A stretch of 48,568 bases of DNA from an uncultured Gammaproteobacteria bacterium (GCA_964593215.1 CAZQIA010000001.1:1-48568), one strand, 5' to 3'; shown: positions 2,836 through 16,721, counted from the first letter of the stretch. Numbers and translations: made by a program. Notes: generated from the letters alone by a model not told the origin.

Positions 2836-2837
2836 AA

Positions 2838-3374
2838 TTAACACCCTTCCGGTAATGGATTAAATAAAGCGTGAGATTCAAGAATGGATGATTTTACCTC
2901 AGAACTAAGATAAAAGGACAGAGGGAGCTTGCAAACATCTTCCTTCGTAAACCCTTTAGATATTAAAAAGTCTACCGCGTCTTTTTTAGCCTGAGAAATG
3001 TTGACACTTCTTATTTCTGCAATAAAAGCGTCCATAGACGGGAGGTAAGCTATTTGTACATTGCTATTGGTAAAAACCTCACCTGGCTTACTGTTTAGGT
3101 TTTGAACAATTGTATTTTTGGAATTTTGTCCATCATCAGAAAGAGCCCTTCTGTTTTTGGAAAGATCAATAAGTTTATTACTTTTTTCAGGGTTGTAAGA
3201 AAACGGAGGGGGGGAGACATTAGTTTCTTTTTGATTTGGAATAAGCGTAGGAATTGCCACTTTAGGATTATTGGGAATAGGTGAATTTTGTCCTAAGTAC
3301 TCAAAAATAATAAACACAACTATTAGAAATAGGGTAGTAAAGACGGCAACTAAAATAAAAAGTAGTGTTTTCAT
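2838..3374 (-). CDS. Bitopic membrane protein in the PrgL/VirB8 position (function unknown)
   Basis: Start MKTLLFILVAVFTTLFLIVVFIIF. The ATG at 3374 overlaps the TGA of the upstream gene (ATGA coupling). It has one N-terminal TM and an extracytoplasmic domain. The VirB8-like call rests on gene order only. Confidence 0.5.
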   Translation of the reverse strand: MKTLLFILVAVFTTLFLIVVFIIFEYLGQNSPIPNNPKVAIPTLIPNQKETNVSPPPFSYNPEKSNKLIDLSKNRRALSDDGQNSKNTIVQNLNSKPGEVFTNSNVQIAYLPSMDAFIAEIRSVNISQAKKDAVDFLISKGFTKEDVCKLPLSFYLSSEVKSSILESHALFNPLPEGC

Positions 3375-5986
3375 CTTTGGGTTACTCCCTGCCAGGCCTG
3401 CCAATATCCGGGAGGACCAGCGTAAGGAACACCGTTGGCTCTAAGAGTTGCGGCAAGTCCCATAGCATTTGTGGTTTGCTCACTCCATCCAACATTCCCT
3501 ACATCATTTGGGCCACTCGTGCTTTTTCCTTTAGGATTCATCTGGTAGAGTCCGTATGCGCCGTTGCCGCTCGTAGAAGATCCACTAAAAGCGTTTGGGT
3601 TCCAACTAGATTCCTTTGGAATAACTACCTGAAACCATGCATCAGCGTTATTTGGATCCTGTGATTTAAGAATTTCACCTACTGCATTTTGAGCTTGGAT
3701 ACGGCTTGCATCAGTTGCAAAGTCACAATTGGGATCTCCAAAGTTTGCCGAAGGGCTTGTAAGCGTATAATAACCATTGCAGGTATCTGAGTTTGGTGTT
3801 GTTACATTTTGTGTTGAATTTGCCATTGCCGTTGCGCTGTTGCTTATTATTATATTATCACTTACCGGTTCTACTATTAGAGTAAGCGGGCTTGTGTTTG
3901 CAGGGTCTGAGAGTTTCCAGCTCACCGTGTTAGCGCCGGTGTCAAAGCTGGAATTACCCGAGGCGCTTATAAATTTTGCACCGCTAGAGATTTTATCTGA
4001 AATTGTTATGTCTGAAATTTGAATGGTTGTACCGGAAGAAGGAGTGTAGGAGTAAGTTATTGTATAAGTGATTCTTTCAGGGCTAGATGGGTTATAAGTT
4101 ATCTGTGTTTTATCAACTTGTTTATTTATGGTAAAGCCAGGTATTGGATTTGTGTTTGGTGGAGTGGTTCCCCCATTGCTTCCTCCGCCTGTGTCTCCAC
4201 CTACTCCTCCTGAAAAATTACTGGATCCCCCACCAGTTGCTGTTATTATGATAATAAGCATTGCAACAAAAAACCCAACTACTAATAAGGCTATTCCTAT
4301 TCCCAAAAGGACTGGTGGATTGCCGATAATTGCCGCTGCAGCTTTTTGCTCTAATTGTTGAAGAGCTTGCCCCGCCAGTTTTCCCTCCTTTTTTTTTACG
4401 GCTCTCGTACCATAACCTGAACCTGATCCTCGCGTTCCTCCTCCAATCCATACGCTTCTTCCTCCCAAGATGCGTTTGGAGGTAAAGGATTTTAAAGAAA
4501 AAAAACGGGTGGGTATGTTTTGACTGTAACCTGCAAAAGTTTGTGAGGGTGAACCTCCTGCATTTTTTGACCCAGAAGTACCTTTTCCTTGAGTAAGCTT
4601 TTGATTGTTTTTTTTCTTTTCTCCCCATTCTCGCATTTTCCACACTTTTGAATCTCTAAGCTTGTTGTAAAGAGCTTTGGGGTTAAATCCTCTCAATTTT
4701 GCCAATGCAATAATCTGGTCATTTTTTTCCTTTTGATATTCAAACGCATTTTTTCTTCTTCTGGTTACTTTCTGCACCCCCTTACCGGTAACCGTTGTCG
4801 CAATGCCAAGAGGAGTAATGTTTTTTACAATCGAAAAAAGCCGGCTCTTTTTGTGTTTAGCTGTGTCAGGAGCTATCAATGAAGTGTCCTCGTTTTTGTA
4901 TTGTTTTCCACGTATTTTATTTATCCCGAGCTTTCCGATCGAGGCTGCGATTCCAACAGGGGTAAGGTTCTTGGCAATAGACATCCCCCAGTGTTTCGAG
5001 TGTTTTTTTTGCGCAGACTGCTCTTTTTCAATTTCCTCAACTGTTTTCTTGCCAAAAACGCGCTGTTTTGCGCGTGAGCCTAAGAACCCAACAACAAATC
5101 CTGCTGGAGTACTATAAAGAAGTGCTCGCCCTGCTTTTTCAGTCGCTGTATTTTTATGAGGTTTTAAGGAGGAGGATGCAGGTTCTTCAGCTTGTTTTTC
5201 TTTTGCATTTTTTCCTCTGGTACGTCTTAGCCCCTCGGTTGCGGCGCTATATGCAATTCCAGCTGGCGTTGTATTTTTAAGAATACTTGTGGCAATGTTC
5301 CCTTTTTTCCTTTCAGCTTCAGAAGGCTCACCCTCCAGAGGTTCTTGAGAAGAGCCACCTTCAGATTTTTGTAAATTTCCTCCCGAGAGCTTTTGGGATG
5401 CGGCTCCTGCAAGACTTGCTGCAATTCCTACTGGTGTTGAGTTCTTGACAACAGTCTTTAAAATACTTCCCGACTTTTTTTGAGAGTCACTTACTATCCT
5501 TTCGGCCTCATCTACCGCAGAGTTTGCTTCATTTGATGAAATGGCGTGTTCAGCATCAGTATTGGATGGTTTACCCGATGCCGGCTGTGCAGCTGGAGTA
5601 GTTTCTTGCTCCTCCACTATTCTTATAGCTTCCTGAACGGCTGCACGTGCGTCTTCAGAGGAAAGTGTTTTTGTTTGAGCACCTGAAATACCAGAGCGGC
5701 TTGCTGTCGATTGTCTTGAAAGTTCTTCGACCCGTGTGTTTCCCCGTCCTTCCTCTATTTGAAATTCACCAGCAGAGTTACTGTCAAATTCTATTTTTGT
5801 GCCTTTTCCCAGTGTTCTTTTTGTGTTAACAGTTGAGGTTGGCGTTTTCTGAGCTGCAGTTATAGGTGAGGAGGCTTGGCTAGGAATGGTTCTTTGTGAA
5901 GAAGGAGGACTCGAACTACCATCAGGATTTCTAATGCTTGTGGCTGGATTATTTGTTTTTTTGTCAGGAGCATTAGTTGTTGCCAT
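3371..5986 (-). CDS. 871-aa bitopic T4SS-associated protein: repeat-rich cytoplasmic N-terminus, TM, Ig-like region, C-terminal lytic transglycosylase (VirB1/PrgK-like)
   Basis: C-terminus reads ..VIPKESSWNPNAF..GNGAYGLYQMN.., the catalytic E-S and GLxQ motif of SLT/GEWL-type transglycosylases. The TM is PVLLGIGIALLVVGFFVAMLIIIITA. It lies directly downstream of VirB4. Confidence 0.7.
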   Translation of the reverse strand: MATTNAPDKKTNNPATSIRNPDGSSSPPSSQRTIPSQASSPITAAQKTPTSTVNTKRTLGKGTKIEFDSNSAGEFQIEEGRGNTRVEELSRQSTASRSGISGAQTKTLSSEDARAAVQEAIRIVEEQETTPAAQPASGKPSNTDAEHAISSNEANSAVDEAERIVSDSQKKSGSILKTVVKNSTPVGIAASLAGAASQKLSGGNLQKSEGGSSQEPLEGEPSEAERKKGNIATSILKNTTPAGIAYSAATEGLRRTRGKNAKEKQAEEPASSSLKPHKNTATEKAGRALLYSTPAGFVVGFLGSRAKQRVFGKKTVEEIEKEQSAQKKHSKHWGMSIAKNLTPVGIAASIGKLGINKIRGKQYKNEDTSLIAPDTAKHKKSRLFSIVKNITPLGIATTVTGKGVQKVTRRRKNAFEYQKEKNDQIIALAKLRGFNPKALYNKLRDSKVWKMREWGEKKKNNQKLTQGKGTSGSKNAGGSPSQTFAGYSQNIPTRFFSLKSFTSKRILGGRSVWIGGGTRGSGSGYGTRAVKKKEGKLAGQALQQLEQKAAAAIIGNPPVLLGIGIALLVVGFFVAMLIIIITATGGGSSNFSGGVGGDTGGGSNGGTTPPNTNPIPGFTINKQVDKTQITYNPSSPERITYTITYSYTPSSGTTIQISDITISDKISSGAKFISASGNSSFDTGANTVSWKLSDPANTSPLTLIVEPVSDNIIISNSATAMANSTQNVTTPNSDTCNGYYTLTSPSANFGDPNCDFATDASRIQAQNAVGEILKSQDPNNADAWFQVVIPKESSWNPNAFSGSSTSGNGAYGLYQMNPKGKSTSGPNDVGNVGWSEQTTNAMGLAATLRANGVPYAGPPGYWQAWQGVTQR
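4757..5467 (-). repeat. Five intragenic protein repeats with core N-x-(S/T)-T-P-x-G-(I/F)-(A/V)
   Basis: The five copies are VVKNSTPVGIAASLAG, ILKNTTPAGIAYSAAT, LLYSTPAGFVVGFLGS, IAKNLTPVGIAASIGK and IVKNITPLGIATTVTG. They fall at about aa 174-410 of the 871-aa protein, and each is followed by a basic stretch. Confidence 0.8.
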
Positions 5987-6004: not shown

Positions 6005-8200
6005 TCATCCATTATTTGCTTGCTGGGTTGTAGTTGAGGATGGCATAGGTGGAGGTGTGGGTATATTTGGGGTTACAGCAGGCTGAGTAGGGGCTTGAGC
6101 TGGTTGCGGTGCAGTAGGAGAATTCCATGAAGCTGGTGCAGGGGCTTGAGTAGGTGGCGTTTGAGCAGGTTGTGATTGCAAGGCATCAGCTGGAGCTGGT
6201 GTAGCTAATGGTTGAGCTGTAGACACTGGTTGGGGTGCTGAGACGGGCTGAGGCGTCTCAACAGAAGGGATACTTGACGTTTGAGACGGAGAAGGGGCGC
6301 TTTGTTGTTCTATGAATTTTTCAGCAGCCCCATTTTTAGACTGTTCGTCTTCTATGATGTCTTGTGGTTTTGAAGTGATTATTTGATATTCAAAATTAGA
6401 CGCCATGAACTGTGCGGTTATATGATTCTGTCCTGCAAATAAAAGCCCTTCTCCTACCTGTGCGGTGAGCAAAAACTGCTTTTCTCCTTCTGATAGATTT
6501 AATGTTGCCGCTAAAGTTTCCACTTCAGAAGAGTTTTGTTTTAAAAGAATCTGCATAGAAGAGTTTGATAAAATTGCCTTTCCATAATCAGAAGACAAAA
6601 AGTCCTCTATGTCCTGTGTTAATGTGGTTACGCCTAGATAGTATTTTCTTGCACGCTTTGCAATTCCTTGTAAAAATGACGCCGAGTCCGGATTTTTCAT
6701 TAAGTACCATGCCTCATCCACTATTAAAATTCTTTTCTTAAGTCGTGTTCTTACTCTGTTCCAGATAAAGTCTAAAATTACCTGCATCGCAACAGGGCGC
6801 AGAGCATCTTCTAACTGCTTTATGGAAAAAACAGTGAGTTGATTTTTAACATCATAGTTTGTCTGTTCGTTTAAAAGCCCTGCAAATCCTCCCTTTACAT
6901 ATTTTTCAAGCCTAAACGCAAGGTCTTTTGCATCCTGCTCCTCCATATTAAGAAGTGTTTTATAAAGATCTTCTAAGATGGGTGGTTCTTTGTCATAAGT
7001 AGAAGGGTCAGGGGTAATTCCTTTTTGCTTGTAGCAAAGCACTAAGCTTCTGTCTAGAATTGCTTCTTGAGTTGGCGTAAAACTTCCAAGCATTGTTTTA
7101 AGAAGTGAGTGCATGGAAAGAATTTTTATACCAAGCTGAGCTTCTGTTTTATCATCAGATAAGAGCGCAAATGGGTTAATTTTTACCTCAGAGTCTTTTG
7201 AAAAAGATATATACTCTCCATCAAGCGCATGGCACAAAGTTTTATACTCATCCTCTGGGTCTATAATAAGAATTTCAGCATCAAACATCATTTGACGCAA
7301 CACTTCAAGCTTAACCAGGAAAGATTTTCCAGCACCAGATTTTCCAAAAACTACTGAATTTGCGTTCTCAAAAGAGAACCTGTCTATAATTACAAGTGAA
7401 TTGTTAAGAGTATTTACTCCGTAAAAAATTCCGTTAGGGTGAGAAATTTCATAAGAGGTAAAAGGAAATGTTGAAGCAACAGACGTGGTGTCCATATTGC
7501 GTGTTACAAAAAGCTTATCTGTTCCTAGGGGCAGTGTGGTTTTGAATCCGTCTTCCATCTGAAGAGTAGCGGGTTTAATAACTAAAAGGTTAGACGCAAG
7601 AAGTGAAGTCAATTCATTTGTCTTTTTATTCAGTTCATCTAGTGTTTTTGCAGCAAGCGTGATATACAGCCCAAACTGGAAAAACCGCTCCAAACCGCGC
7701 GCAAGTTCTTCCCGCAGGGCAACAGCATCTTCCAGCGCCGCTCTTACTTTTGGGTCTGGTTCTGTACCGTTTTTCATATCAGACTCTATGGTTGCCTCCA
7801 TTTCAGCAATTTTGCGTCTCAGGTTAGACAGAATATCCTTGCTTTCAACGGGATAAATAAACATGGAAACATTCATGGTTTCCTTATAATCTATGAGCAT
7901 AGAAAGCCATGAGGGAGAAACTTCTCTGGGATAATCAACCACTATAAAAGATCTGTAGAACGCGTCTCCAACTCTAATATGCTTAAAGTCAACCTCCACA
8001 GAAGAAGGAGCTATAAGATCAACCAGGGAGATGGACCCCTTTTTAAGAGTTTCAATCCCTTTTTGAATAGCAGGGTCAACGGCGTGATGGGTTGGTTGTT
8101 GGGCTGTGGTTCCGGAAGGAACAACTATAGTTCCTGTTGGGGCTGAGGTAACAGGAGGAGTCTGTGCTGTTTGATTTTTTTTTGATCCTAAACCTAGCAT
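6005..8200 (-). CDS. virB4: VirB4/TrbE/PrgJ-family type IV secretion ATPase with Pro/Gln/Thr/Ala-rich C-terminal tail
   Basis: Walker A FGKSGAGKSF and Walker B ILIVDEAWYLM. The N-terminal domain pattern ..IRVGDAFYRSFIVVDYPREVSPSWLSML.. is typical of VirB4. It sits next to a PrgI-like gene. Confidence 0.85.
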   Translation of the reverse strand: MLGLGSKKNQTAQTPPVTSAPTGTIVVPSGTTAQQPTHHAVDPAIQKGIETLKKGSISLVDLIAPSSVEVDFKHIRVGDAFYRSFIVVDYPREVSPSWLSMLIDYKETMNVSMFIYPVESKDILSNLRRKIAEMEATIESDMKNGTEPDPKVRAALEDAVALREELARGLERFFQFGLYITLAAKTLDELNKKTNELTSLLASNLLVIKPATLQMEDGFKTTLPLGTDKLFVTRNMDTTSVASTFPFTSYEISHPNGIFYGVNTLNNSLVIIDRFSFENANSVVFGKSGAGKSFLVKLEVLRQMMFDAEILIIDPEDEYKTLCHALDGEYISFSKDSEVKINPFALLSDDKTEAQLGIKILSMHSLLKTMLGSFTPTQEAILDRSLVLCYKQKGITPDPSTYDKEPPILEDLYKTLLNMEEQDAKDLAFRLEKYVKGGFAGLLNEQTNYDVKNQLTVFSIKQLEDALRPVAMQVILDFIWNRVRTRLKKRILIVDEAWYLMKNPDSASFLQGIAKRARKYYLGVTTLTQDIEDFLSSDYGKAILSNSSMQILLKQNSSEVETLAATLNLSEGEKQFLLTAQVGEGLLFAGQNHITAQFMASNFEYQIITSKPQDIIEDEQSKNGAAEKFIEQQSAPSPSQTSSIPSVETPQPVSAPQPVSTAQPLATPAPADALQSQPAQTPPTQAPAPASWNSPTAPQPAQAPTQPAVTPNIPTPPPMPSSTTTQQANNG

Positions 8201-8206
8201 AAAGTT

Positions 8207-8815
8207 TTAAATGATTATGTTTTTTATATCACTTGATGAGAAATCTACTGGAATTGCTTGCTGGTTATAAAGCTCAAAAAATATGCGTCCTAGTTCTTCT
8301 GCCTTCAAAGCTCTGCTTGAAAGACCAATTCTTTCAATTTGTGTCATGACGTTTGACCGTTTTGTTGCTAAAGATTCCGACACTCTGGTAGCAAAGTCTT
8401 TATTTGTTCCGGTTGGACCCAGCTCTAACGAGCTAAACGGAATAACGGCATATGTTTTTTTATCTAAGAGCCCGGCATCTTTAATGAGCTCCTGAATAAA
8501 CTCTTTATAAAGCCTTAGGTGTTCCTTGATTCTTTGGTTGTTAACCGTTCCTATTTTGTGGTCTAAGGACGCAATATATGAAGTAAGGTCTATTTTCTTA
8601 CTCACAATTACAATCTGAAGCGCAAAAGATAAAGAATTTAGTAGGGACATGTATCCATAAATCCTGGCATTCTGTTCATCTTGAGAAAGAAGAAAGAAGT
8701 TGACGCTTGAGACCTCTAAAATTGAGCAGGCGCCTCTTCCGCGCAAAAAAACTACATCTTCTTTAATGTCCTCTATTTCAATAAATGTTTGTGTGCTTGA
8801 TTTTATTTTCGACAT
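8207..8815 (-). CDS. Hypothetical T4SS-associated protein (202 aa, soluble)
   Basis: Lies between the PrgI-like and VirB4 genes in the same operon. The segment DVVFLRGRGACSILEVSSVNFFLLSQDEQNARIYGY resembles the N-terminal region of monoderm VirB4 proteins. This is a resemblance judged by eye only. Confidence 0.5.
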   Translation of the reverse strand: MSKIKSSTQTFIEIEDIKEDVVFLRGRGACSILEVSSVNFFLLSQDEQNARIYGYMSLLNSLSFALQIVIVSKKIDLTSYIASLDHKIGTVNNQRIKEHLRLYKEFIQELIKDAGLLDKKTYAVIPFSSLELGPTGTNKDFATRVSESLATKRSNVMTQIERIGLSSRALKAEELGRIFFELYNQQAIPVDFSSSDIKNIII

Positions 8816-8851: not shown

Positions 8852-9901
8852 TTAAACTTGGGCAGTTTTTGCAACTCCAAAAAGCTCTTGTCTTAATTTC
8901 TCACGCTGATCTACTGAAGTTATTTCAAGGGGAGGAAGAATGATGCCTGAAAGTTGAATAGTTACGTCAGAAAACTCCTGCTTTTTGAGTGTGTCTTCCA
9001 GGTGAATGGTGTATGTTCCGTTTGGCATGGGGGTAGCAGCAGCAAACGCACCATTTTGGTTAGTTCTAAATGTTCTTTGCGGGATTTTATTCTCATCTAA
9101 GAATTCTACAATAATATGCGGAAGCAATTTCCCTCTAGGATCTTTTACAACGCCTTTTATAACATTAGGGGCGTCAAACTGTGATGGCGCTTGTGCAGGA
9201 GCCTGTATGGATTGCGGTAAAGGCTGTGAAGAAGCTGTCTGTTCTGCGGGGGCTTGTTGAGCAGGCTGTTGTATGGGTGAGGGAACATCTGGTATATGTG
9301 GTTTTGCGTCTATATCAACGTGTGGTGGTTGGATGACGGGGGCAGGGGCTGTAAGAGGGTTTTCTTCAGGGGGAATTGCGTCCGCGTTTACAACTTTTGT
9401 CTGGGTTGGAATGGGGGAATCCGGATTTTTAAATAAATCTGAAAGAGAAGCTATGCCTTTTTGTTCGTCATCGTCAGGTTTAAAATATGTTCTAGAAAGT
9501 TTGCTAAATAAAAGCGCTTTATCAGAAGCTGCTGAGGATACTTGTTGTTGCTGTGCTGCCGCAGGCTTTATGTGCTGAGGCTTTGGGTTGAAATAAAAAT
9601 ACGGCATATCAACCCCCTTTTTGTGATATATGTACTGGTTTTCTGAAGGTATAGTTCTTATAAAATTTGCAATCATTTTGTCCATGGGCCTTCCGTCGAT
9701 TGGAATAAAAGCAAGCGCAAGGCCTACAACAGCCGGTAAAAACATGCACGGAATTTTAATAACTATAGGAATAGGCAAAAAATATAGAATAAGCGCAACT
9801 ACCCCTGCTCCCAACAGGTATAAAAATTGTTTAACGGTAATTGATCCTATAAGCCTAAATTTAAAACCAGTAACATCCTGCGGAATCGGGTGATTCTCCA
9901 T
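8852..9901 (-). CDS. PrgI/VirB3-like membrane protein fused to a P/Q/A-rich linker and a carboxypeptidase-regulatory-like beta-sandwich
   Basis: From the ATG at 9901: MENHPIPQDVTGFKFRLIGSITVKQFLYLLGAGVVALILYF..IPIDGRPMDKMIANFI, matching the PrgI family pattern. The C-terminus IKGVVKDPRGKLLPHIIVEF..TNQNGAFAAATPMPNGTYTIHLE is CarboxypepD_reg-like. The track ORF starts at a TTG at 9955. Confidence 0.6.
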   Translation of the reverse strand: MENHPIPQDVTGFKFRLIGSITVKQFLYLLGAGVVALILYFLPIPIVIKIPCMFLPAVVGLALAFIPIDGRPMDKMIANFIRTIPSENQYIYHKKGVDMPYFYFNPKPQHIKPAAAQQQQVSSAASDKALLFSKLSRTYFKPDDDEQKGIASLSDLFKNPDSPIPTQTKVVNADAIPPEENPLTAPAPVIQPPHVDIDAKPHIPDVPSPIQQPAQQAPAEQTASSQPLPQSIQAPAQAPSQFDAPNVIKGVVKDPRGKLLPHIIVEFLDENKIPQRTFRTNQNGAFAAATPMPNGTYTIHLEDTLKKQEFSDVTIQLSGIILPPLEITSVDQREKLRQELFGVAKTAQV

Positions 9902-10106
9902 ATCACTAAGAGTATTACGTGAAAATTTGTACTTCAAGATTACAAAGTGGGTCAAAAGGTGAGGAAAATGTGCCTAACGTGAAAACACTGCATCTTTCCT
10001 TGACACAGTGTTCTTTTTTACGATAGGATTAGATTGTTGGGCGCATGTTAAGATGCGGTGATTTTGATGTCAAGATAAAAACCCTACACGTTGATATTAT
10101 GGCATC

Positions 10107-10503: not shown

Positions 10504-12423
10504 ATGCCAACAGCACCAACAACAGAAGCAAGACAAAGAGCAACAGAAGCAACTTTGCGCCCTGATGTTAAAATTACAAGGGTAAGCACTGAAGCTCAGA
10601 AAAAAGTTGCGAGACTTCAGGAAAAAGTGAAGGAGGAGCCTCGTGTTGCTATTGAGGACATGGCTACAGCTGAGCCTATAGATCCAGCAAAGATTGCTAA
10701 GTCTCAAGAAAACTATCAGTTTAAAAAAGCTGACGGATCAGCAGATACAACTACATACGCGGCACAGAAAAGTGATGAAAAAACTGCTGTAGACAGTTTG
10801 AAGCAATTTGTTGAAACAGGGGTAGTTACCGGAGGAATAGAGCAAAAAGTCTTAGACCATCTTGTAAAAGATGCTGTTATTAAAAAACAACTGGAGGCGT
10901 TTGTGGGAGCAGGAAACAGTATAGATTTGGGAAATGCAGATGTACGGGGTGCTGTAACAAAGATACTGGAAAACCCTGTATTTGTTCAAAGCTTAAGAGA
11001 TACATTAAGTGGAGCGCTTTCTGAGAGTACTTCAGAGCTAGGGGACACAATCGCTTCCAAAGAAAGAGCTTATGACGAGGCTAAGAGAAAATGGCAGAAA
11101 TCAAATGATGAATTAGTAAAACTAGAAGGATCCGTGACTACTCCAGGAAGCCTTGCAGAGAAAACCAATAAATTAAACACAGAGTTTGTTCGGGGTGCAG
11201 TAGGTGGGCCGCCAACAAAAGCAGATACTATTGCGAATTTGGAGGCTAATGAGGGGACGTTAAATCGTGAACTCTCAGTGCTTCAAGCGGCACAAGATAA
11301 AGACAACACAAGACTTGCAGCGTTACGTTCACAACGAGATGCAGCCTCTGCTAGTGGAAAAACAGGCGATGCAACAATAGCACAGAGGCAGATTGATGCG
11401 ATAGAAACTGCCATGAGAGAACGAGAGACCTTAGAGATTAAGCCGAGGGACGCACAGGTACAAGAATTAAATAACTTAAGACATGAGAGAGATAGTTTGA
11501 AAAAGGAAGTGGAGGAAACGATTCCGGCAAGAATAGAGCAGTTAAAAGATGAGCTAGTTGGTTTAAATGAGCAAAAATTTGCTACTCAAGCGGATTTTGA
11601 TAGGGCTACGTTAGAATTTAAAGATGCCGTAAATGGAAGAGTAAAGGGTTTTCAAGAAATGGCGGGAGCACAAGCAGTGCAATTTGTTAAGGCTGAGATA
11701 GCCCATGCACAAAACATAGAGCAAACACGTCTTCAAAAAGCCATAGAAAAGGCTGAGGCTGCCGGGGATAAACAACTTGCTGCACTTCTAAAATCCGTTG
11801 AGACTAGATGGGATTCTCCACGAGATCATAAGGTTGCGAAGTGGAAGAATGCTGAGATAAAGCCCGATGAGGCTAAGGTTAAGCCTGATCTGGATGTCTT
11901 ATTTGCAGGTGGGCCAGAGGAGCTCGGGAAGCAGCTGTTTCTTGAGACGGTCCCTGACCCATCAAATCCAGGCAAATTTATAACAAGAAGAGCTATTAAT
12001 CCAGAAACAAAAAGAGCATATAAAGATGATGAGATTAAGGCTGCCATGGAAAAAGAAGGATTTAAGCAGGTGCAGGAGGAGGCTGTTCAGAGAGTTTTAG
12101 GAAAAGCTTTAGAGTTAGGATTAGTAAATAAAGACAATGCTCAGCAAATTTTACAAACCACATGGGGAGTGGATGCTCTAAAAAAGGCACGAGAATGGAA
12201 TAAATCAGTTGATGAGCAATTAAAGCTTTTTGAGAAAAAATCCGGAATAAAAAACATACTTGATCCTAAGAATATTGCAGAATTGACAAAGAAAAATAAA
12301 AAGTTCTCACTCTGGCTTCTTTTAACCATGCTGAGTCCTGGTTTAGGGTTTATAGTGGGAAGCGGTTTGTTAACAAAGAGCATGATTTCATCTGGAGGAG
12401 AACATGGAGAAAAAGCGCACTAG
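10504..12423 (+). CDS. Hypothetical 639-aa coiled-coil protein with C-terminal membrane anchor
   Basis: Long charged helical sequence rich in E/K/A/Q. The only hydrophobic segment is near the C-terminus (FSLWLLLTMLSPGLGFIVGSGLL). No family recognised. Confidence 0.6.
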   Translation: MPTAPTTEARQRATEATLRPDVKITRVSTEAQKKVARLQEKVKEEPRVAIEDMATAEPIDPAKIAKSQENYQFKKADGSADTTTYAAQKSDEKTAVDSLKQFVETGVVTGGIEQKVLDHLVKDAVIKKQLEAFVGAGNSIDLGNADVRGAVTKILENPVFVQSLRDTLSGALSESTSELGDTIASKERAYDEAKRKWQKSNDELVKLEGSVTTPGSLAEKTNKLNTEFVRGAVGGPPTKADTIANLEANEGTLNRELSVLQAAQDKDNTRLAALRSQRDAASASGKTGDATIAQRQIDAIETAMRERETLEIKPRDAQVQELNNLRHERDSLKKEVEETIPARIEQLKDELVGLNEQKFATQADFDRATLEFKDAVNGRVKGFQEMAGAQAVQFVKAEIAHAQNIEQTRLQKAIEKAEAAGDKQLAALLKSVETRWDSPRDHKVAKWKNAEIKPDEAKVKPDLDVLFAGGPEELGKQLFLETVPDPSNPGKFITRRAINPETKRAYKDDEIKAAMEKEGFKQVQEEAVQRVLGKALELGLVNKDNAQQILQTTWGVDALKKAREWNKSVDEQLKLFEKKSGIKNILDPKNIAELTKKNKKFSLWLLLTMLSPGLGFIVGSGLLTKSMISSGGEHGEKAH

Positions 12424-12773
12424 GGATTAGGAGTAAGACCTGCTCCAGGAGTAGTTAGTTGCTCAATTCCTACTCCGGTAAATGTTGAGATAAATCTTAA
12501 GATCATAAAAGAGGAAAAAATAAACACGAGTCCAATTATTGCATAGGTTAAGCGTTTTCTTGCAGAGTCTACCTTTTCTTTATCTCCATTAGAAGTTACA
12601 TACTGAAACCCTGACCAGATAATTAAAAATACCGCAACTACTCCCGCAAGAATTAATGCTGCGTTGATAACATTCTGTAGCACTATCCAAACACAAGAAA
12701 GTTTAGGTGCAGTATTTGTATCTATTACTCCTCCATCATAACAGGCGCTCCAATCATTAGTTAATAGATTCAT
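12420..12773 (-). CDS. VirB2/TrbC-like T4SS pilin paralog 1
   Basis: Two hydrophobic helices flank the loop WSGFQYVTSNGDKEKVDSARKRL. The motif is shared with the ORFs at 12824, 13289 and the C-terminus of 13622..15298. Confidence 0.6.
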   Translation of the reverse strand: MNLLTNDWSACYDGGVIDTNTAPKLSCVWIVLQNVINAALILAGVVAVFLIIWSGFQYVTSNGDKEKVDSARKRLTYAIIGLVFIFSSFMILRFISTFTGVGIEQLTTPGAGLTPNP

Positions 12774-12823
12774 TTATTAAAGTGTACACAGAAAAGAAAG
12801 AGTAATTCAAGTGGCGATAAGGT

Positions 12824-13237
12824 TTATGTGGGTTTCTGATTAAGTGAAGGGATACTAAATCCTCCGTTAAGACTCTTTCCGGTTAAGACCTGAAGAACAG
12901 CATTGATAATTATGTATGCAAGAATAACTATAATAAGCCCTACAATGGCCGCGACAATTGTAGAACGTGCTGAATCAACTTTTCCTTTATCTCCGCCTGA
13001 CAGAATCCATCTTACACCTCCGTAGAGAAGGAAAATAAGAGATAAAACAATTCCTACAACAATAATTGCATTAATAATAAACGCAATGAGGCTGTTTATG
13101 TCTGTATTAACCCCTCCAATAGAGTTAGGCGCTGCTATTGCAATTGTAGGAACATCTGCAAATGCCATTCCGGAAGAAAGAAGAAGCATGCCTGTAGATA
13201 CTGAAGTAGCTAGAAGAGCATTTTTTGTAATTTTCAT
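12824..13237 (-). CDS. VirB2/TrbC-like T4SS pilin paralog 2
   Basis: Signal peptide ending in ..GMAFA. Helix-loop-helix YGGVRWILSGGDKGKVDSARSTIVAAIVGLIIV. Confidence 0.65.
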   Translation of the reverse strand: MKITKNALLATSVSTGMLLLSSGMAFADVPTIAIAAPNSIGGVNTDINSLIAFIINAIIVVGIVLSLIFLLYGGVRWILSGGDKGKVDSARSTIVAAIVGLIIVILAYIIINAVLQVLTGKSLNGGFSIPSLNQKPT

Positions 13238-13288
13238 GAATAATTATATTAGAGCATGGATTTATTGACTTGTCAAGATGACGAAAAC

Positions 13289-13618
13289 TTAGTATTTTCC
13301 AAGATTACTGAGATACTCAGACCCTAAAAGATATCCTATGGTTTGAACTATGGTAAAGGCAAGAATCATAACAATAATTCCCACTACTGAAAAGACAATA
13401 GTTCTTCTGGCGCGGTCAAGTTTACTTTTATCTCCTTGAGAAGTAATCCATAAGATTCCTCCGTATGTTGCAAAAATTACCGCAAAAACTACTCCCGCAA
13501 CCAGAAAAAGACTAATAAAGGTTTTTATGGTGTTTGCAGGGGCGTCTGCTCCTGCAGGTATGTTGGGAGGCGGAGTAATCCCCCCATATCCAGGTATACT
13601 AAGAGATAAATATTTCAT
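13289..13618 (-). CDS. VirB2/TrbC-like T4SS pilin paralog 3
   Basis: Helix-loop-helix YGGILWITSQGDKSKLDRARRTIVFSVVGIIVM. It starts 3 nt after the stop of the 558-aa gene. Confidence 0.65.
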   Translation of the reverse strand: MKYLSLSIPGYGGITPPPNIPAGADAPANTIKTFISLFLVAGVVFAVIFATYGGILWITSQGDKSKLDRARRTIVFSVVGIIVMILAFTIVQTIGYLLGSEYLSNLGKY

Positions 13619-13621
13619 ATG

Positions 13622-15298
13622 TTATCTTCCAAAGCCGGGAATGTGCAGTACATTTATTCCTATAAATTCTAGTATAGTTATACTTAAAATTAAGAAGATA
13701 AGCCCGGTTATAGCAGCTGTTATTTGTTCGCGTGCTTGTCCTATTTTTTCTTTATTTCCAGCTGACGTTAGAATAGTGTATCCTGCCCGTATGAAAAATG
13801 CAAAAGATGCAATTCCTCCTAGGCTTAACGCGATTGAGAACAAGTCACTTATAAACTCATTAGGTTTTGTATGTATAGAAAAGCCTAAGGCTGTAGGAAT
13901 AGAGCTGCAGAGGCCTGTATCAGGATCTGGTTTACAAATAGGCTCCGGGGTAATCATTTTTACTGGTTTATACTTCTCTTTCCCAAAAGGATCTTTTATA
14001 GGTGAGCCAAAATCTCCTCTGTCTATACAATTTGTGCCTTTCCCATCCTTACACGAAATATGACCCTGTCCAATTCTAAACGGAATGTCATAATAGGTAA
14101 AGTCACCTTCATGACACGTAGGGTTGTTTGCGTCAAAATTTCCATCGGTTCCATCCTTAATGCGTAATACATAGCTCCCAGGAGAAAGGTCAACTGGCAG
14201 GATGTGTGGATCATCGGGTGTCCATGTTTGAGGAAGGGTAACTTTAATTGTTTGCGGAGTTGTATTAGGACCTTTGATAAAAATACACTGGCTCGTAGTA
14301 GTTCTATAGTCACTTTCTGTGCTAAAAACCTTCACAAAGTAGTCGTTATATCTGTCTGCGTCATTTCTTCCTTTTTCATTTCTTCCCTGCATGGTTAGAG
14401 TAATTTCAGCAGTCTTTCTGGTATTGTCTACGTAGAGATCATCCCACTGTCCTGGAGGGATGGGACCTACGATGAGTGTTGAAGTGGGCGCAGTAATATC
14501 CGGATAAAAGTGTCCTACATAAAAAGACGCAATTCTTACTACATTATTTTGTAAAATGTCCTTGTCTTTTAAATCGCTTTTTCCGATGGCAAGATACATT
14601 CTGTAGGTGGTCTCAGGCCAAAACCAGTCAGAACCATCATCATTACATTCATCTTCGTCTCCATGTATTTTTCCTTTTAACCCTTTATTTCTGTCTCCGC
14701 AAACAGTATAGACCCCGTTTTCAGGGTTACTAACCGTTACCCACTCGTCTCCTTTGCAATCATTCAGGCTGTTTTTTGCGCACATATAATATTTTAAGCC
14801 TGCCTTATTAGAAGAAAGATCTTTAAGGTCTTTAAAAGAGAGGTTTACTCTGAAGACGCTTTCATCAACTACGCAATACTCTTTTGAATTTGCAAAATGA
14901 GTAGTATCTCCTTCCTGTACGCAATCAACCGGTTTATTGTTTTTATCGTCTGGGTAGAGTTTTTTTAGCGCATTCCTACAGGAAGATTCGCTCGTTCTAT
15001 TTGCGCCGCTTGCATTGTCCATGAGTTTTTGCTTGCTTTTTGATGCCGCTTTGTATGCGGCGTTTGCTTGATCTACGAATGCCCGGTCACAATTATTTGC
15101 ACAAATAGTACTACCGTTTTTTTCTCCCGGCTCAAGAAGTCCAGAGTCAAAAAGAAAGTATCCATTATCTGGGCACATGCTGCCTGTACTTGGAACGTTA
15201 AGAGGGAAAAATGCAAAAGTTCTATTAACGCCAACAGTGGGGAGTAAGATTAAGATAAAGATAAAACATATGAAAGCAAAGAAAAGAAATTTCCGCAT
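13622..15298 (-). CDS. Secreted Cys-rich 558-aa protein with a C-terminal VirB2-like pilin module (candidate pilus-associated adhesin)
   Basis: Signal peptide MRKFLFFAFICFIFILILLPTVGV..FA. About 470 aa follow, carrying many Cys. The last roughly 70 aa read SLGGIASFAFFIRAGYTILTSAGNKEKIGQAREQITAAITGLIFLILSITILEFI, the same motif as the three small pilins. Confidence 0.6.
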   Translation of the reverse strand: MRKFLFFAFICFIFILILLPTVGVNRTFAFFPLNVPSTGSMCPDNGYFLFDSGLLEPGEKNGSTICANNCDRAFVDQANAAYKAASKSKQKLMDNASGANRTSESSCRNALKKLYPDDKNNKPVDCVQEGDTTHFANSKEYCVVDESVFRVNLSFKDLKDLSSNKAGLKYYMCAKNSLNDCKGDEWVTVSNPENGVYTVCGDRNKGLKGKIHGDEDECNDDGSDWFWPETTYRMYLAIGKSDLKDKDILQNNVVRIASFYVGHFYPDITAPTSTLIVGPIPPGQWDDLYVDNTRKTAEITLTMQGRNEKGRNDADRYNDYFVKVFSTESDYRTTTSQCIFIKGPNTTPQTIKVTLPQTWTPDDPHILPVDLSPGSYVLRIKDGTDGNFDANNPTCHEGDFTYYDIPFRIGQGHISCKDGKGTNCIDRGDFGSPIKDPFGKEKYKPVKMITPEPICKPDPDTGLCSSIPTALGFSIHTKPNEFISDLFSIALSLGGIASFAFFIRAGYTILTSAGNKEKIGQAREQITAAITGLIFLILSITILEFIGINVLHIPGFGR

Positions 15299-15401
15299 AG
15301 ATTAATCATATGGGTTTGTTAACATTTGTGTCAAGCAAAGTTAGTTTTCCCCGTCTATCGTAGCTTGTGTTAAGCAAGACATAGTAAAGGTGGAAGAGAA
15401 T

Positions 15402-16721
15402 TTACTCGGTAAACAAATATCCGCGGCCTTTTACTGTGGTGATATGTGTAGGGTTGTTAGGATCTTCCTCAATTTTTTTTCTTACCCGATAGATAATTTG
15501 ATCAAGCGCCTGATCAGTTACGCCTTCTCTGGTTTGTGAATCTGTCCAGACGGAGGAAATAATTTCATCCTTCTCGCATACGCGTCCTTTATTTTGAATT
15601 AAAAATCTCAAGAGCTTAAATTCAGAAGAAGAAAGTTTGTTGGTTAATTTGTCTTTTCCCTGGGAAATCTCATTTGTTTGTGGATCATAGATAATTTTTT
15701 CTCCGGAAGGTTTAGGAAAGTCAGGCAGCCTTTTTTCCAGTAGTGGAATCTGAATTTTTCCGTTTTTTGTGAGCCCAACTTTTTCTAAATATTCTTCAGA
15801 AGAGTTTTCTTTAAATAAGTCTTGCTGTTCCTGGGGTAGAAGTGCGTCCCAAATTTCAAAAAGGGACGCTTTTATGGCACTTTTGGAAAGAAGAAATGAA
15901 GATAAATCTTTTGGGAACACTTCTTCTGAAAGTATGTTTTCAAAAGACGCCCTTAACAGTTTTCCGTGTCCTCCGGTTATGTCTAAAATTTCATGTTTTT
16001 TTTCTTCAGAGACCTTTTTTCCAGAAACCTTTTCTAAATAAGAGATTCTAAAATCATTTGCATAAGAATCAGAAAGAGCAAGAAATACAGTATTTCCTGC
16101 AATAAATTCATAATATTCAGAAATAACTGCAGGTTCCAGAATGTCCTCAAGCGGTCTATTTAATGCAAATACACAGGAAAATCTGTATTTTGCTCTGTTT
16201 CTTAAGATTTTTAAATCCAGAAAAAATTGAGAAATTACGTGCGGGACATACGTGTCAAATCTATCAAACAAAAAAATTACCGTCAACTCTTTCTCCACAC
16301 ATAAAAAGTCTATGGTTTTTTTAAGTGCTTGAGAAAGGATGAGCTCATCCTGGAATGAGAGTGCTTCTTTTAAAAACGTATTTACAGTTTCAGCTTCTTT
16401 ATCCATTTTGCGTTCTGAGAGAGAATAAGAAATAGAGATAATGATGAATTTTAATATGTCTAGGAGACTTCTTTCCTGCACCTCTGAAAGATCCATGTAC
16501 ACAAAGTGAAACCATTTGTAGTTCTCCCCAAGGTGTTTCAGGCGCACAGCGTTATTGTAGGCAAGAAGTCGTAGAAAGTTACTTTTTCCCACTCCGGGAA
16601 GCGCTAGGACTTGAACAGAGGACCCTTTTTTTACGTAGGAAATGAGCTCAGACACTTCTTTTTCTCGGGTAGCCTCAGGATATAAAGATTCAAAATGTGT
16701 ATGGTCTGAAGCAGGATTCAT
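15402..16721 (-). CDS. P-loop NTPase (AAA/STAND-like) fused to C-terminal OmpR/PhoB-type winged-helix DNA-binding domain
   Basis: Walker A LALPGVGKSNFL and Walker B-like VIFLFDRFD. The C-terminus LSSSEFKLLRFLIQNKGRVCEKDEIISSVW..TDQALDQIIYRVRKKIE..ITTVKGRGYLF is a Trans_reg_C signature. There is no receiver domain. Confidence 0.7.
   Translation of the reverse strand: MNPASDHTHFESLYPEATREKEVSELISYVKKGSSVQVLALPGVGKSNFLRLLAYNNAVRLKHLGENYKWFHFVYMDLSEVQERSLLDILKFIIISISYSLSERKMDKEAETVNTFLKEALSFQDELILSQALKKTIDFLCVEKELTVIFLFDRFDTYVPHVISQFFLDLKILRNRAKYRFSCVFALNRPLEDILEPAVISEYYEFIAGNTVFLALSDSYANDFRISYLEKVSGKKVSEEKKHEILDITGGHGKLLRASFENILSEEVFPKDLSSFLLSKSAIKASLFEIWDALLPQEQQDLFKENSSEEYLEKVGLTKNGKIQIPLLEKRLPDFPKPSGEKIIYDPQTNEISQGKDKLTNKLSSSEFKLLRFLIQNKGRVCEKDEIISSVWTDSQTREGVTDQALDQIIYRVRKKIEEDPNNPTHITTVKGRGYLFTE

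What the first reader, a model, noticed from the sequence alone, without database searches (positions are those of the whole stretch)
12420..15298. Four-member VirB2-like pilin family, including a 558-aa Cys-rich protein carrying the pilin module at its C-terminus
Four consecutive minus-strand ORFs share one helix-loop-helix module. Its pattern is hydrophobic helix, [YW]-x-G-x(4,5)-[ST]-x-G-[DN]-K-x-K-[VLI]-x-x-A-R, hydrophobic helix:
- FQYVTSNGDKEKVDSARKRL
- VRWILSGGDKGKVDSARSTI
- ILWITSQGDKSKLDRARRTI
- YTILTSAGNKEKIGQAREQI

Three are small (109-137 aa), as expected for VirB2/TrbC pilins. The fourth places the module after a signal peptide and a Cys-rich ectodomain of about 470 aa.

Inference: a large disulfide-bonded ectodomain is anchored or polymerised through a pilin module, acting as a tip adhesin or minor pilin. 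I do not know this architecture from classical T4SS pili. Pilin 1 also carries a pair of Cys upstream of the module.
Basis: partly seen in the sequence, partly recalled or inferred. Interest (0 to 1): 0.75.

Follow-up and report, generated by a model that had tools for sequence, protein, structure and literature searches.

The report
Four pilin genes, one carrying ectodomain
Four adjacent genes of an ultra-small (Patescibacteria) bacterium encode the pilin-like subunits of its type IV secretion system; the first is a real, widely conserved variant whose pilin hairpin carries a large, disulfide-rich, Ig/fibronectin-like surface domain that probably mediates attachment to a host cell.

Summary
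Four co-directional minus-strand ORFs (117, 137, 109 and 558 aa) all score above Pfam's threshold for PF18895 T4SS_pilin. They lie 4 kb from VirB4, TrsD-like, PrgI/VirB3 and lytic-transglycosylase genes, near dnaN, in a Patescibacteria (Levyibacteria-like) genome.

Such VirB2-like pilin arrays are already published (Wang 2023; Quiñonero-Coronel 2025), so the array is a new member of a known kind.

The 558-aa protein is not an assembly fusion. Orthologues at 37-49% identity keep the same architecture, and the junction is among its best-conserved stretches.

It represents a distinct "large-type" (LT) pilin class:
- It is always gene 1 of a conserved four-gene cassette (37/37).
- It has its own signature: a Cys-x8-Cys loop, TA[LI]G, and a C-terminal IG[VIF][DN]ILx[IL]PG.
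- Its N-terminal ectodomain ranges from almost nothing to about 480 aa, and its sequence is hypervariable.

In this protein AlphaFold predicts tandem FN3/Ig-like β-sandwiches, with 16 Cys.

The most likely role is a low-copy (tip or minor) pilin-anchored host-binding subunit. A static membrane-anchored adhesin remains possible, because some LT genes lie outside T4SS loci.

Homology to classical VirB2/TrbC is only weakly supported. I found no paper describing the LT class.

The parts
13622..15298 (-). Large-type (LT) pilin, 558 aa; gene 1 of the pilin cassette
   Evidence: PF18895 hit at aa 479-546. Orthologues keep the architecture. It is gene 1 in 37/37 full cassettes.
15212..15298 (-). Signal-peptide-like N-terminus of the LT pilin (aa 1-29, ...NRTFA|F)
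   Evidence: Hydrophobic segment at aa 1-31. 108 of 123 large relatives have such a segment. The cleavage site is inferred from the -3/-1 rule and was not predicted with a tool.
14876..15211 (-). Lineage-specific, low-confidence N-terminal region of the ectodomain (aa 30-141, about 6 Cys)
   Evidence: Shared only with the 95%-identical P0001. Other orthologues align from about aa 140 onward. Most of aa 23-139 has pLDDT < 50.
14054..14875 (-). Conserved ectodomain core (aa 142-415): two predicted FN3/Ig-like beta-sandwich domains
   Evidence: AF2 with 37 sequences gives pLDDT 80-96 and an all-beta fold. Foldseek matches tandem FN3 proteins at E about 3e-4, prob 0.9-0.98. No Pfam or PDB sequence match. 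The core is shared by 75 of 123 large relatives.
13865..14053 (-). Linker with the conserved D-P-x-G-x-E, Cys455-x8-Cys464 loop and TALG motif (aa 416-478), joining ectodomain to hairpin
Evidence: D436, P437, C455 and C464 are invariant and T469, G472 nearly invariant in 37 sequences; P479 just beyond the linker is also nearly invariant.
13625..13864 (-). LT pilin hairpin (aa 479-558): helix 479-511, loop SAGNKEKIGQAR, helix 516-550, C-terminal IGINVLHIPGFGR
   Evidence: The C-terminal signature IG[VIF][DN]ILx[IL]PG found 520 confirmed metagenomic matches.
13289..13618 (-). Small pilin, 109 aa; cassette position 2; no signal peptide
   Evidence: PF18895 at 28.8 bits. Orthologues in L001-L003. 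Typical position-2 size is about 113 aa.
12824..13237 (-). Small pilin, 137 aa; cassette position 3; classical signal peptide (…GMAFA|D)
   Evidence: PF18895 at 27.5 bits. Position 3 matches this paralogue in 36/37 cassettes.
12420..12773 (-). Small pilin, 117 aa; cassette position 4; conserved Cys pair in its N-terminal tail
   Evidence: PF18895 at 47.4 bits; TrbC E = 0.002; NF045849 E = 4e-8. Position 4 matches this paralogue in 37/37 cassettes.
15305..15334 (-). Promoter-like site TTGACA-18-TATGAT, 6 nt upstream of the LT start codon
   Evidence: Matches 11 of 12 consensus positions. A -35 CTTGAC is also present upstream of the orthologues. This is a consensus match only.
15402..16721 (-). 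439-aa regulator (NTPase-like N-terminus plus OmpR/PhoB-type winged helix) directly upstream and co-directional
   Evidence: Trans_reg_C E = 2e-21. A homologue lies upstream of the LT gene in 19 of 32 loci and in L001-L003.
6005..8200 (-). VirB4-type ATPase
   Evidence: P-loop_TraG E = 2e-36; AAA_10; CagE_TrbE_VirB.
8207..8815 (-). TrsD/TraC-like protein (homologous to the VirB4 N-terminal domain)
   Evidence: NCBIfam TrsD E = 1.5e-4 and VirB4_plasma E = 3e-11. PF26593 is annotated on the orthologue.
8852..9955 (-). PrgI/VirB3-like membrane protein
   Evidence: PF12666 E = 4.5e-11.
3371..5986 (-). 871-aa protein with a C-terminal SLT lytic-transglycosylase domain (VirB1-like)
   Evidence: PF01464 at 23.2 bits, above its cut-off.
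19921..21579 (-). 552-aa polytopic membrane protein, syntenic with the cassette; VirB6-like candidate by topology only
   Evidence: Five to six hydrophobic segments. Homologues occur in many LT loci. No family match.

Best explanation
The four genes are the VirB2-like (PF18895) pilin cassette of a chromosomal, monoderm-type (MPF_FATA-like) type IV secretion system in a Patescibacteria bacterium of the Microgenomates/Levyibacteria type.

The cassette holds four ancient, non-interchangeable pilin classes in a fixed order. Gene 1, the 558-aa protein, belongs to a distinct large-type class.

Proposed steps (all inferred):
1. A Sec signal peptide exports the N-terminus.
2. A disulfide-stabilised ectodomain folds outside the cell. 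It consists of a variable cap plus two FN3/Ig-like beta-sandwiches.
3. The C-terminal helix-loop-helix inserts with both ends outside and the charged S-x-G-N-K-E-K...A-R loop inside.
4. The loop motif is shared with the three small pilins, so the same VirB4-driven machinery most likely handles all four.
5. In solved conjugative pili the loop lines the lumen and the termini face outward. An N-terminal domain would therefore project from the fibre.
6. A domain of about 450 aa cannot sit on every subunit of such a lattice. The protein should therefore be a low-copy subunit, at the tip or initiating assembly, or sparsely decorating the fibre.
7. It would present a lineage-specific host-binding domain.
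For: Shown:
- All four proteins exceed the PF18895 threshold.
- VirB4, TrsD-like, PrgI and SLT genes lie 4-9 kb away, near dnaN. This matches the published picture.
- The architecture and gene order are conserved in L001, L002 and L003 at 37-96% identity.
- 123 of the 152 best representatives have a >150-aa N-terminus plus one C-terminal module. 108 of those have a signal-like N-terminus. The Cys count is even in 85% (p = 2e-15).
- Among loci with enough flank, the LT gene is followed by at least one small pilin in 32/39 and by three in 26/39. VirB4 is present in 11/17.
- Cassette position predicts paralogue class: 37/37, 36/37 and 37/37 for positions 1, 3 and 4.
- S, G, K, K, A, R and G are invariant across all four classes.
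- LT pilins form a continuum. It runs from 'bare' forms (128-150 aa: signal peptide + Cys loop + hairpin) to 568 aa.
- Modules are 53% identical on average, while only 27% of ectodomain pairs are detectably similar.
- Some relatives carry Cys-rich extensions after the C-terminus, which fits both ends being outside.
- The AF2 model has mean pLDDT 75, and 80-96 over most of the core. Its Foldseek matches are FN3/Ig tandems, and one relative hits Pfam fn3.

From the literature:
- The pilin array is essential in Southlakia.
- In conjugative pili the hairpin loop faces the lumen (PMC12037004).
Against: - No filament has been observed for any Patescibacteria T4SS.
- Homology to structurally solved VirB2/TrbC pilins is weak: PF04956 is sub-threshold, hhalign gives 7.8% and 27.6%, and there is no PDB sequence hit.
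- The LT module has its own C-terminal motif, absent from the small pilins. This could mean a different fate.
- Five of 80 LT loci place LT genes between hrcA-grpE-dnaK-dnaJ and metG. They have no small pilin alongside the LT genes (only one about 5-7 kb away on the opposite strand) and no VirB4 within 7-10 kb.
- Foldseek TM-scores are low (0.1-0.3), so the fold assignment is generic.
- No binding partner is known.
Confidence: 0.55

Rival explanations
1. The 558-aa protein is a static surface adhesin or receptor. The pilin-type hairpin serves only as a C-terminal membrane anchor in the bacterium's own membrane. The protein is never extracted or polymerised, and is merely co-regulated with the T4SS.
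For: - LT genes also occur in housekeeping neighbourhoods with no T4SS genes nearby; the only small pilin lies 5-7 kb away on the opposite strand.
- The LT-specific C-terminal IPGF motif and Cys loop are absent from the small pilins.
- Tandem FN3/Ig domains are typical stalks of membrane-anchored receptors.
- A polyprotein with six modules exists (P0114). This shows the hairpin can act as an ordinary membrane element.
Against: - The LT gene holds a fixed first position in the pilin cassette in 37/37 cases.
- 'Bare' LT pilins without an ectodomain exist. They make no sense as anchors with no cargo.
- The loop motif is conserved with the small pilins.
- A single transmembrane helix would be enough for anchoring.
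Confidence: 0.25
2. None of the four proteins forms a pilus. The hairpins build or line a membrane channel or stalk of the T4SS, or insert into the host membrane as a translocon. The large ectodomain then acts as a structural spacer across the cell wall or a docking element, functionally analogous to VirB5, VirB6 or VirB8.
For: - Monoderm T4SSs normally have no pilus.
- No VirB5, VirB8 or PrgB-type adhesin was recognised in the window.
- Four fixed, non-redundant classes suggest a defined hetero-oligomer rather than a homopolymer.
Against: - The family's nearest annotated relatives are pilins or pilin-like conjugal transfer proteins.
- Ectodomain hypervariability suits an exposed recognition surface better than a structural spacer.
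Confidence: 0.15
3. The 558-aa ORF is an assembly or frameshift artefact that fuses a secreted-protein gene to a small pilin gene.
For: None found. The only hint was the unusual length.
Against: - Independent assemblies from JGI, Logan, NCBI and ENA encode the same architecture at 37-96% identity.
- The junction (aa 433-499, nt 13800-14000) contains invariant residues D436, P437, C455 and C464 and nearly invariant P479 and F482 in 37 sequences.
- 65 complete LT ORFs of 67-568 aa were found in metagenomes.
Confidence: 0.02

Closest known systems
VirB2-like pilin arrays of Patescibacteria T4SS (Southlakia epibionticum SEML1_0014-0019, Wang et al. 2023; survey by Quiñonero-Coronel et al. 2025)
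   Same: - Same Pfam family (PF18895).
- Tandem divergent pilin genes near virB4, PrgI and TrsD, close to the replication origin.
- A monoderm-type T4SS without a relaxase nearby.
   Different: - The Southlakia pilins are all small, about 125-185 aa.
- Here gene 1 carries a 450-aa ectodomain and belongs to a separate class with its own signature.
- Here the four classes are fixed by position. The survey instead suggested variation that might help adaptation to different host strains.
- The survey counts such proteins simply as 'VirB2' and gives no lengths.
Classical conjugative pilins VirB2/TrbC/TraA (PF04956; T, RP4, F, H and R388 pili)
   Same: - A small helix-loop-helix with a basic loop.
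- In some members, a signal peptide.
- Encoded beside VirB3 and VirB4 homologues.
- The profile alignment is in register.
   Different: - Sequence similarity is below family thresholds.
- Classical pilins are about 70-120 aa with no appended domains.
- Their tip protein is the unrelated VirB5.
- No relative of the 558-aa protein occurs on 72,556 plasmids.
Mycoplasma ICE pilin-like protein (NCBIfam NF045849, Mbov_0395 family)
   Same: A hairpin protein in a monoderm MPF_FATA-type conjugation locus. All four window proteins match it, at E 4e-8 to 4e-3.
   Different: All scores are below the curated cut-off (at most 32.8 bits against 40). That family is small, about 80 aa, with no ectodomain.
Two-domain adhesin-pilins of other filament systems: FimH (chaperone-usher) and the type IV minor pilins CofB, TcpB and GspK (comparison from general knowledge, not tested here)
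   Same: The logic is the same. A polymerisation module is fused to a receptor-binding or bulky domain, giving a low-copy subunit that sits at the tip or initiates assembly.
   Different: The folds and assembly machines are unrelated. In type IV pilins the bulky domain is C-terminal to the helix, whereas here it is N-terminal to a hairpin. This is an analogy, not membership.

Membership tests
Pfam PF18895 T4SS_pilin | Score at or above the curated gathering threshold (26.6 bits) | tested here: met
   Scores are 47.4, 27.5, 28.8 and 29.9 bits for the 117-, 137-, 109- and 558-aa proteins. All 12 orthologue modules match.
Pfam PF18895 T4SS_pilin | Two hydrophobic helices joined by a short charged loop | tested here: met
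   Shown by hydropathy segments. AF2 places helices at 479-511 and 516-550. The loop residues are invariant.
Patescibacteria VirB2 array (as defined by Quiñonero-Coronel et al. 2025) | At least two PF18895/PF04956 genes in tandem near virB4 | tested here: met
   Four tandem genes lie 4.2 kb from VirB4. The definition is quoted.
Classical VirB2/TrbC pilins (PF04956) | Score at or above the gathering threshold (27.9 bits), or significant profile-profile similarity | tested here: not met
   The best score is 18.8 bits (E = 0.002), and only 5 of 12 members match at E <= 1. hhalign gives probabilities of 7.8% and 27.6%, with P = 6.5e-4 for the second comparison; both alignments are in register. There is no PDB sequence hit. 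Southlakia pilins hit both families, which gives a transitive link only.
Classical VirB2/TrbC pilins (PF04956) | Polymerises into an extracellular pilus, with a lipid-bound lumen-facing loop; some members are cyclised | not testable with these tools
   This needs fibre purification, cryo-EM or cryo-ET.
MPF_FATA-type (monoderm) T4SS locus | VirB4 together with PrgI/VirB3, TrsD and a cell-wall hydrolase, and no outer-membrane core genes | tested here: met
   VirB4, PrgI, the SLT domain and the TrsD-like protein were all found. No VirB7, VirB9 or VirB10 match was found in the window. VirB6 is represented only by a topology candidate.
Large-type (LT) pilin class (defined here) | Cys-x8-Cys loop + TA[LI]G before helix 1; C-terminal IG[VIF][DN]ILx[IL]PG; first gene of the cassette | tested here: met
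   The 558-aa protein has C455/C464, TALG and IGINVLHIPGFGR. LT holds position 1 in 37/37 cassettes.
Tip adhesin / minor pilin (functional class) | Low-copy incorporation at the fibre tip, and receptor binding | not testable with these tools
   Inferred only from topology, sterics and ectodomain variability.

The most novel reading that the evidence does not exclude
VirB2-type secretion pili of Patescibacteria carry a built-in adhesin subunit. A dedicated pilin class (LT) uses its exposed N-terminus as a display site for interchangeable, disulfide-rich domains. These domains would determine which host cell the episymbiont's T4SS engages. This would be the first adhesin-pilin fusion in the T4SS pilin superfamily. 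It would also give a sequence-readable host-range marker for uncultivated Microgenomates.
Probability: 0.3. Interest if true: 0.8.

Novelty: new variant of a known kind. Interest (0 to 1): 0.55.

Why it matters
The T4SS and its pilin array are essential for the epibiotic life of the one genetically tractable Patescibacterium. Nobody knows what the system binds or moves, and no PrgB-type adhesin has been found in these bacteria.

A conserved pilin class that carries a hypervariable, extracellular, Ig/FN3-like domain is the obvious candidate for the missing host-recognition element. It gives concrete targets for antibodies, pull-downs and cryo-ET.

It would also extend the 'adhesin fused to a polymerisation module' principle to a third, unrelated pilus superfamily. 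That principle is already known from chaperone-usher and type IV pili.

If the protein is only a membrane-anchored adhesin, it is still a very abundant family of surface proteins. I found no description of it in microbial dark matter. There are at least 520 confirmed metagenomic loci from one short motif, and PF18895 dominates freshwater-specific structure clusters.

Tried and rejected
1. Assembly or frameshift fusion. Rejected on orthologue conservation across the junction.
2. First AF2 run with 5 sequences. Mean pLDDT was 49.6, too poor to use. It was replaced by a 37-sequence run.
3. A second homologous-protein search with the 37-sequence profile returned the same four proteins, so nothing was gained.
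4. Sequence searches of PDB with the module profile and with two ectodomain profiles found nothing meaningful.
5. Pfam scans of the ectodomains of 37 + 43 relatives found only PF18895, plus one fn3 hit.
6. Foldseek against viral structures gave only generic beta-sandwich matches.
7. hhalign against A. tumefaciens VirB2 alone, and against 12 annotated MPF_T VirB2/TrbC proteins fetched from plasmids. The alignments were in register but probabilities were low, so homology to classical VirB2 stays unproven.
8. tblastn of the 558-aa protein against 72,556 plasmids found no match.
9. Recent tandem duplication or antigenic variation as the origin of the array. Rejected, because each paralogue has 1:1 orthologues at 63-77% identity against 21-35% between paralogues, and position predicts class.
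10. Literature searches for large VirB2 or T4SS_pilin fusions found none.

Full report
**1. Observation**

Between 12420 and 15298 the minus strand carries four consecutive ORFs of 558, 109, 137 and 117 aa in transcription order. They are separated by 3, 51 and 50 nt. All four exceed the curated threshold of Pfam PF18895 'T4SS_pilin', with 29.9, 28.8, 27.5 and 47.4 bits against a cut-off of 26.6. An HMM built from the four modules finds no other copy among all window ORFs of 40 aa or more.

Each protein has two hydrophobic helices around an S-x-G-[DN]-K-x-K-x3-A-R loop. S, G, K, K, A, R and a following G are invariant across the four proteins and their orthologues. The only slip is that the leading [YW] of the proposed pattern is R in the large protein.

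The large protein has a hydrophobic N-terminus (aa 1-29). Residues 30-478 contain 16 Cys, or 3.56% against 0.68% in the other 37 ORFs of the window (p = 1e-7). The Cys pair in the 117-aa pilin is conserved in its orthologues.

**2. Genomic context**

The window looks like a Patescibacteria chromosome:
- GC content is 32-43%.
- dnaN lies at 624-1730.
- An almost identical locus sits on a 588-kb metagenomic contig.
- The only species-representative genome with an orthologue is a Candidatus Levyibacteriota MAG.

Downstream of the array, beyond a convergent 639-aa gene, lie several T4SS genes:
- a VirB4 ATPase (6005-8200);
- a TrsD/TraC-like protein (8207-8815);
- a PrgI/VirB3-like protein (8852-9955);
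- an 871-aa protein with an SLT domain (3371-5986).

A syntenic 552-aa polytopic membrane protein (19921-21579) is a VirB6-like candidate by topology only. A T4CP-like gene lies 30 kb away.

This is the monoderm-type T4SS described for Patescibacteria. It lies near the origin and includes arrays of 2-11 divergent VirB2-like pilins, which are especially common in Microgenomates (Quiñonero-Coronel et al. 2025). In Southlakia the array is essential (Wang et al. 2023; review). The 'four-member pilin family' is therefore a new member of a published kind.

**3. The 558-aa ORF is not a fusion artefact**

Independent assemblies encode the same architecture. One search found proteins at 95% and 40-45% identity, and one search found about 20 more at 39-49%. 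In a 37-sequence alignment the suspected junction (aa 433-499, nt 13800-14000) is among the best-conserved stretches. D436, P437, C455 and C464 are invariant, and T469, G472, P479 and F482 are nearly invariant.

The gene order regulator, large pilin, three small pilins recurs in L001, L002 and L003.

**4. A distinct large-type (LT) pilin class**

phmmer of the 558-aa protein against 1.84 billion representatives gave 6654 hits at E <= 1e-3 and 2000 at E <= 1e-10. The 152 sequences examined were the query, P0003 and the 150 listed hits. Among them:
- 123 have a single C-terminal module preceded by more than 150 aa;
- 108 of those 123 start with a signal-like hydrophobic segment;
- the N-terminal regions hold a median of 10 Cys, and the count is even in 85% (p = 2e-15).

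Their modules share a signature that the small pilins lack: a Cys-x8-Cys loop, TA[LI]G, and a C-terminal IG[VIF][DN]ILx[IL]PG. Of these, 520 were confirmed by tblastn, and 80 loci were retrieved.

In those 80 loci:
- Complete LT ORFs range from 67 to 568 aa, with a median of 371.
- Where at least 1.5 kb of downstream sequence is available, 32 of 39 have at least one small pilin and 26 of 39 have three.
- The three small pilins have typical sizes of about 113, 137 and 108 aa.
- VirB4 is present in 11 of 17 loci with at least 7 kb downstream.
- The 439-aa regulator is present upstream in 19 of 32.

In 37 full cassettes, position 1 is always LT. Position 3 best matches the 137-aa paralogue in 36 of 37, and position 4 best matches the 117-aa paralogue in 37 of 37. 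Orthologues are 63-77% identical, against 21-35% between paralogues. The cassette is therefore an old set of four specialised subunits. It is not a recently duplicated, antigenically varying array.

**5. The ectodomain is an add-on at the pilin's exposed N-terminus**

Short LT pilins exist that consist only of signal peptide, Cys loop and hairpin (128-150 aa). Others carry small Cys-knot-like inserts (189-207 aa), and the series continues up to 568 aa. Some relatives also carry Cys-rich extensions after the C-terminal IPGF. This fits a topology with both termini outside the cell and the loop inside.

The modules average 53% pairwise identity. Only 27% of ectodomain pairs are detectably similar, and the ectodomains fall into 39 clusters.

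In the window protein:
- Residues 30-141 are lineage-specific and modelled with low confidence.
- Residues 142-473 form a core shared by 75 of 123 relatives.
- AlphaFold2 with 37 sequences gives mean pLDDT 75, and 80-96 over most of the core. It predicts two beta-sandwich domains followed by the hairpin.
- Foldseek matches tandem FN3/Ig-like ectodomains such as contactin FN1-3, L1CAM, cytokine receptors and GH3 FnIII. E is about 3e-4 and probability 0.9-0.98, but TM-scores are low.
- One relative hits Pfam fn3.
- No Pfam family or PDB sequence matches the core.

**6. Mechanism**

Shown:
- family membership;
- T4SS linkage;
- the conserved architecture;
- the fixed first position in the cassette;
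- the loop motif shared with the small pilins;
- ectodomain variability and Cys enrichment;
- the predicted fold.

Inferred:
- export through Sec and disulfide formation outside the cell;
- hairpin topology with N and C termini out and the loop in;
- handling by the VirB4 machinery together with the small pilins;
- outward projection of the N-terminal domain;
- low copy number, at the tip or as an assembly initiator, because a 450-aa domain cannot decorate every subunit;
- binding to the host surface.

The outward projection rests on solved conjugative pili, where the basic loop of the hairpin lines the lumen and the termini lie on the opposite side (PMC12037004).

I put this explanation at about 0.55.

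The main rival, at 0.25, is a static adhesin that uses the hairpin only as an anchor. Five LT loci support it. They lie between hrcA-grpE-dnaK-dnaJ and metG, and have no adjacent small pilin and no VirB4. The LT-specific C-terminal motif also supports it. The bare LT pilins and the fixed cassette position argue against it.

A role in a channel, stalk or translocon gets 0.15. An assembly artefact gets 0.02.

**7. Comparison with known families**

Membership in PF18895 and in the published class of Patescibacteria pilin arrays is met.

Membership in classical VirB2/TrbC (PF04956) is not demonstrated:
- The best score is 18.8 bits against a threshold of 27.9, and 5 of 12 members match at E <= 1.
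- hhalign against A. tumefaciens VirB2 gives 7.8% probability. That sequence was recalled from memory and validated at 99% identity to an annotated virB2.
- hhalign of a 219-sequence module profile against 12 annotated MPF_T VirB2/TrbC proteins gives 27.6% (P = 6.5e-4). It aligns helix 1, the GxxW turn, the loop (with a 7-residue gap) and helix 2 in register.
- Southlakia pilins hit both families, which gives only a transitive link.

All four window proteins also match the Mycoplasma ICE 'pilin-like conjugal transfer protein' NF045849, below its cut-off (E = 4e-8 to 4e-3). No relative of the 558-aa protein exists on 72,556 plasmids.

Functionally, the closest analogues are two-domain adhesin-pilins of unrelated systems, such as FimH and the type IV minor pilins CofB, TcpB and GspK. 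This comparison comes from general knowledge and is an analogy, not membership.

**8. Novelty and score**

The array is known. The LT class is not described in any paper I could find. What appears undescribed is its signature, its fixed first position, and its continuum from bare pilin to a protein carrying about 480 aa of hypervariable, disulfide-rich ectodomain. The 2025 survey lists such proteins simply as 'VirB2', without lengths.

I rate it a new variant of a known kind, with interest 0.55. It is a concrete candidate for the missing host-recognition element of an essential but mysterious secretion system. Its function remains inferential, and the underlying family and arrays are already published.

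Noticed in passing
window 15305-15334 (- strand): A near-consensus promoter-like site (TTGACA-18-TATGAT) ends 6 nt before the ATG of the 558-aa gene, and no Shine-Dalgarno sequence is evident. This suggests a leaderless transcript and a promoter for the pilin cassette separate from the upstream regulator. A CTTGAC -35 box and a -10-like box also precede the orthologues in L003 and L001.
   Followed up: partly
window 15402-16721 (- strand): A 439-aa protein with an NTPase-like N-terminus and an OmpR/PhoB-type winged-helix C-terminus lies directly upstream of the cassette. It is co-conserved with the cassette: present in L001-L003 and in 19 of 32 metagenomic loci. It is a candidate dedicated regulator of pilin expression.
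   Followed up: partly
protein P0114 (representative library hit): A single 552-aa ORF contains six tandem T4SS_pilin modules behind one signal peptide, which means 12 transmembrane helices. It is either a pilin polyprotein or a fused array.
   Followed up: no
proteins P0080, P0091, P0107: In these large-type pilins the IPGF motif is followed by an additional C-terminal Cys-rich domain. Both ends of the hairpin can therefore carry extracellular domains.
   Followed up: no
L028 6592-9326; also L049, L025, L056, L069: Large-type pilin genes, sometimes two in tandem, sit between the hrcA-grpE-dnaK-dnaJ operon and metG. There is no adjacent small pilin and no VirB4 within 7-10 kb. A lone 97-98-aa pilin lies on the opposite strand about 5-7 kb away.
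   Followed up: partly
window 2218-2844 (- strand): A 208-aa protein with a signal-like N-terminus and 8 Cys has no family match. It is encoded among the T4SS genes and may be another secreted, disulfide-bonded component.
   Followed up: no
window 29911-34529: A large serine recombinase (519 aa) lies next to a DUF5677 protein and unannotated ORFs. This may be an integrated mobile element.
   Followed up: no
window 12420-12423: The convergent 639-aa coiled-coil, C-terminally anchored protein (10504-12423, + strand) overlaps the end of the 117-aa pilin gene by 4 nt, leaving no room for a terminator. This gene and a 1045-aa protein (16774-19911) have no family match. The pair flanks the cassette in L001-L003, and homologues recur in only some of the metagenomic loci.
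   Followed up: no
L002 9881-11554 (protein P0001): The public gene call for the 95%-identical orthologue (517 aa) starts 40 codons too far downstream and so lacks the signal peptide. The ORF is 557 aa.
   Followed up: yes
window 45086-47518 (- strand): A T4CP-like ATPase gives weak TraG-D_C and TrwB matches. It is encoded about 30 kb from the T4SS cluster, and no relaxase was seen anywhere in the window.
   Followed up: no
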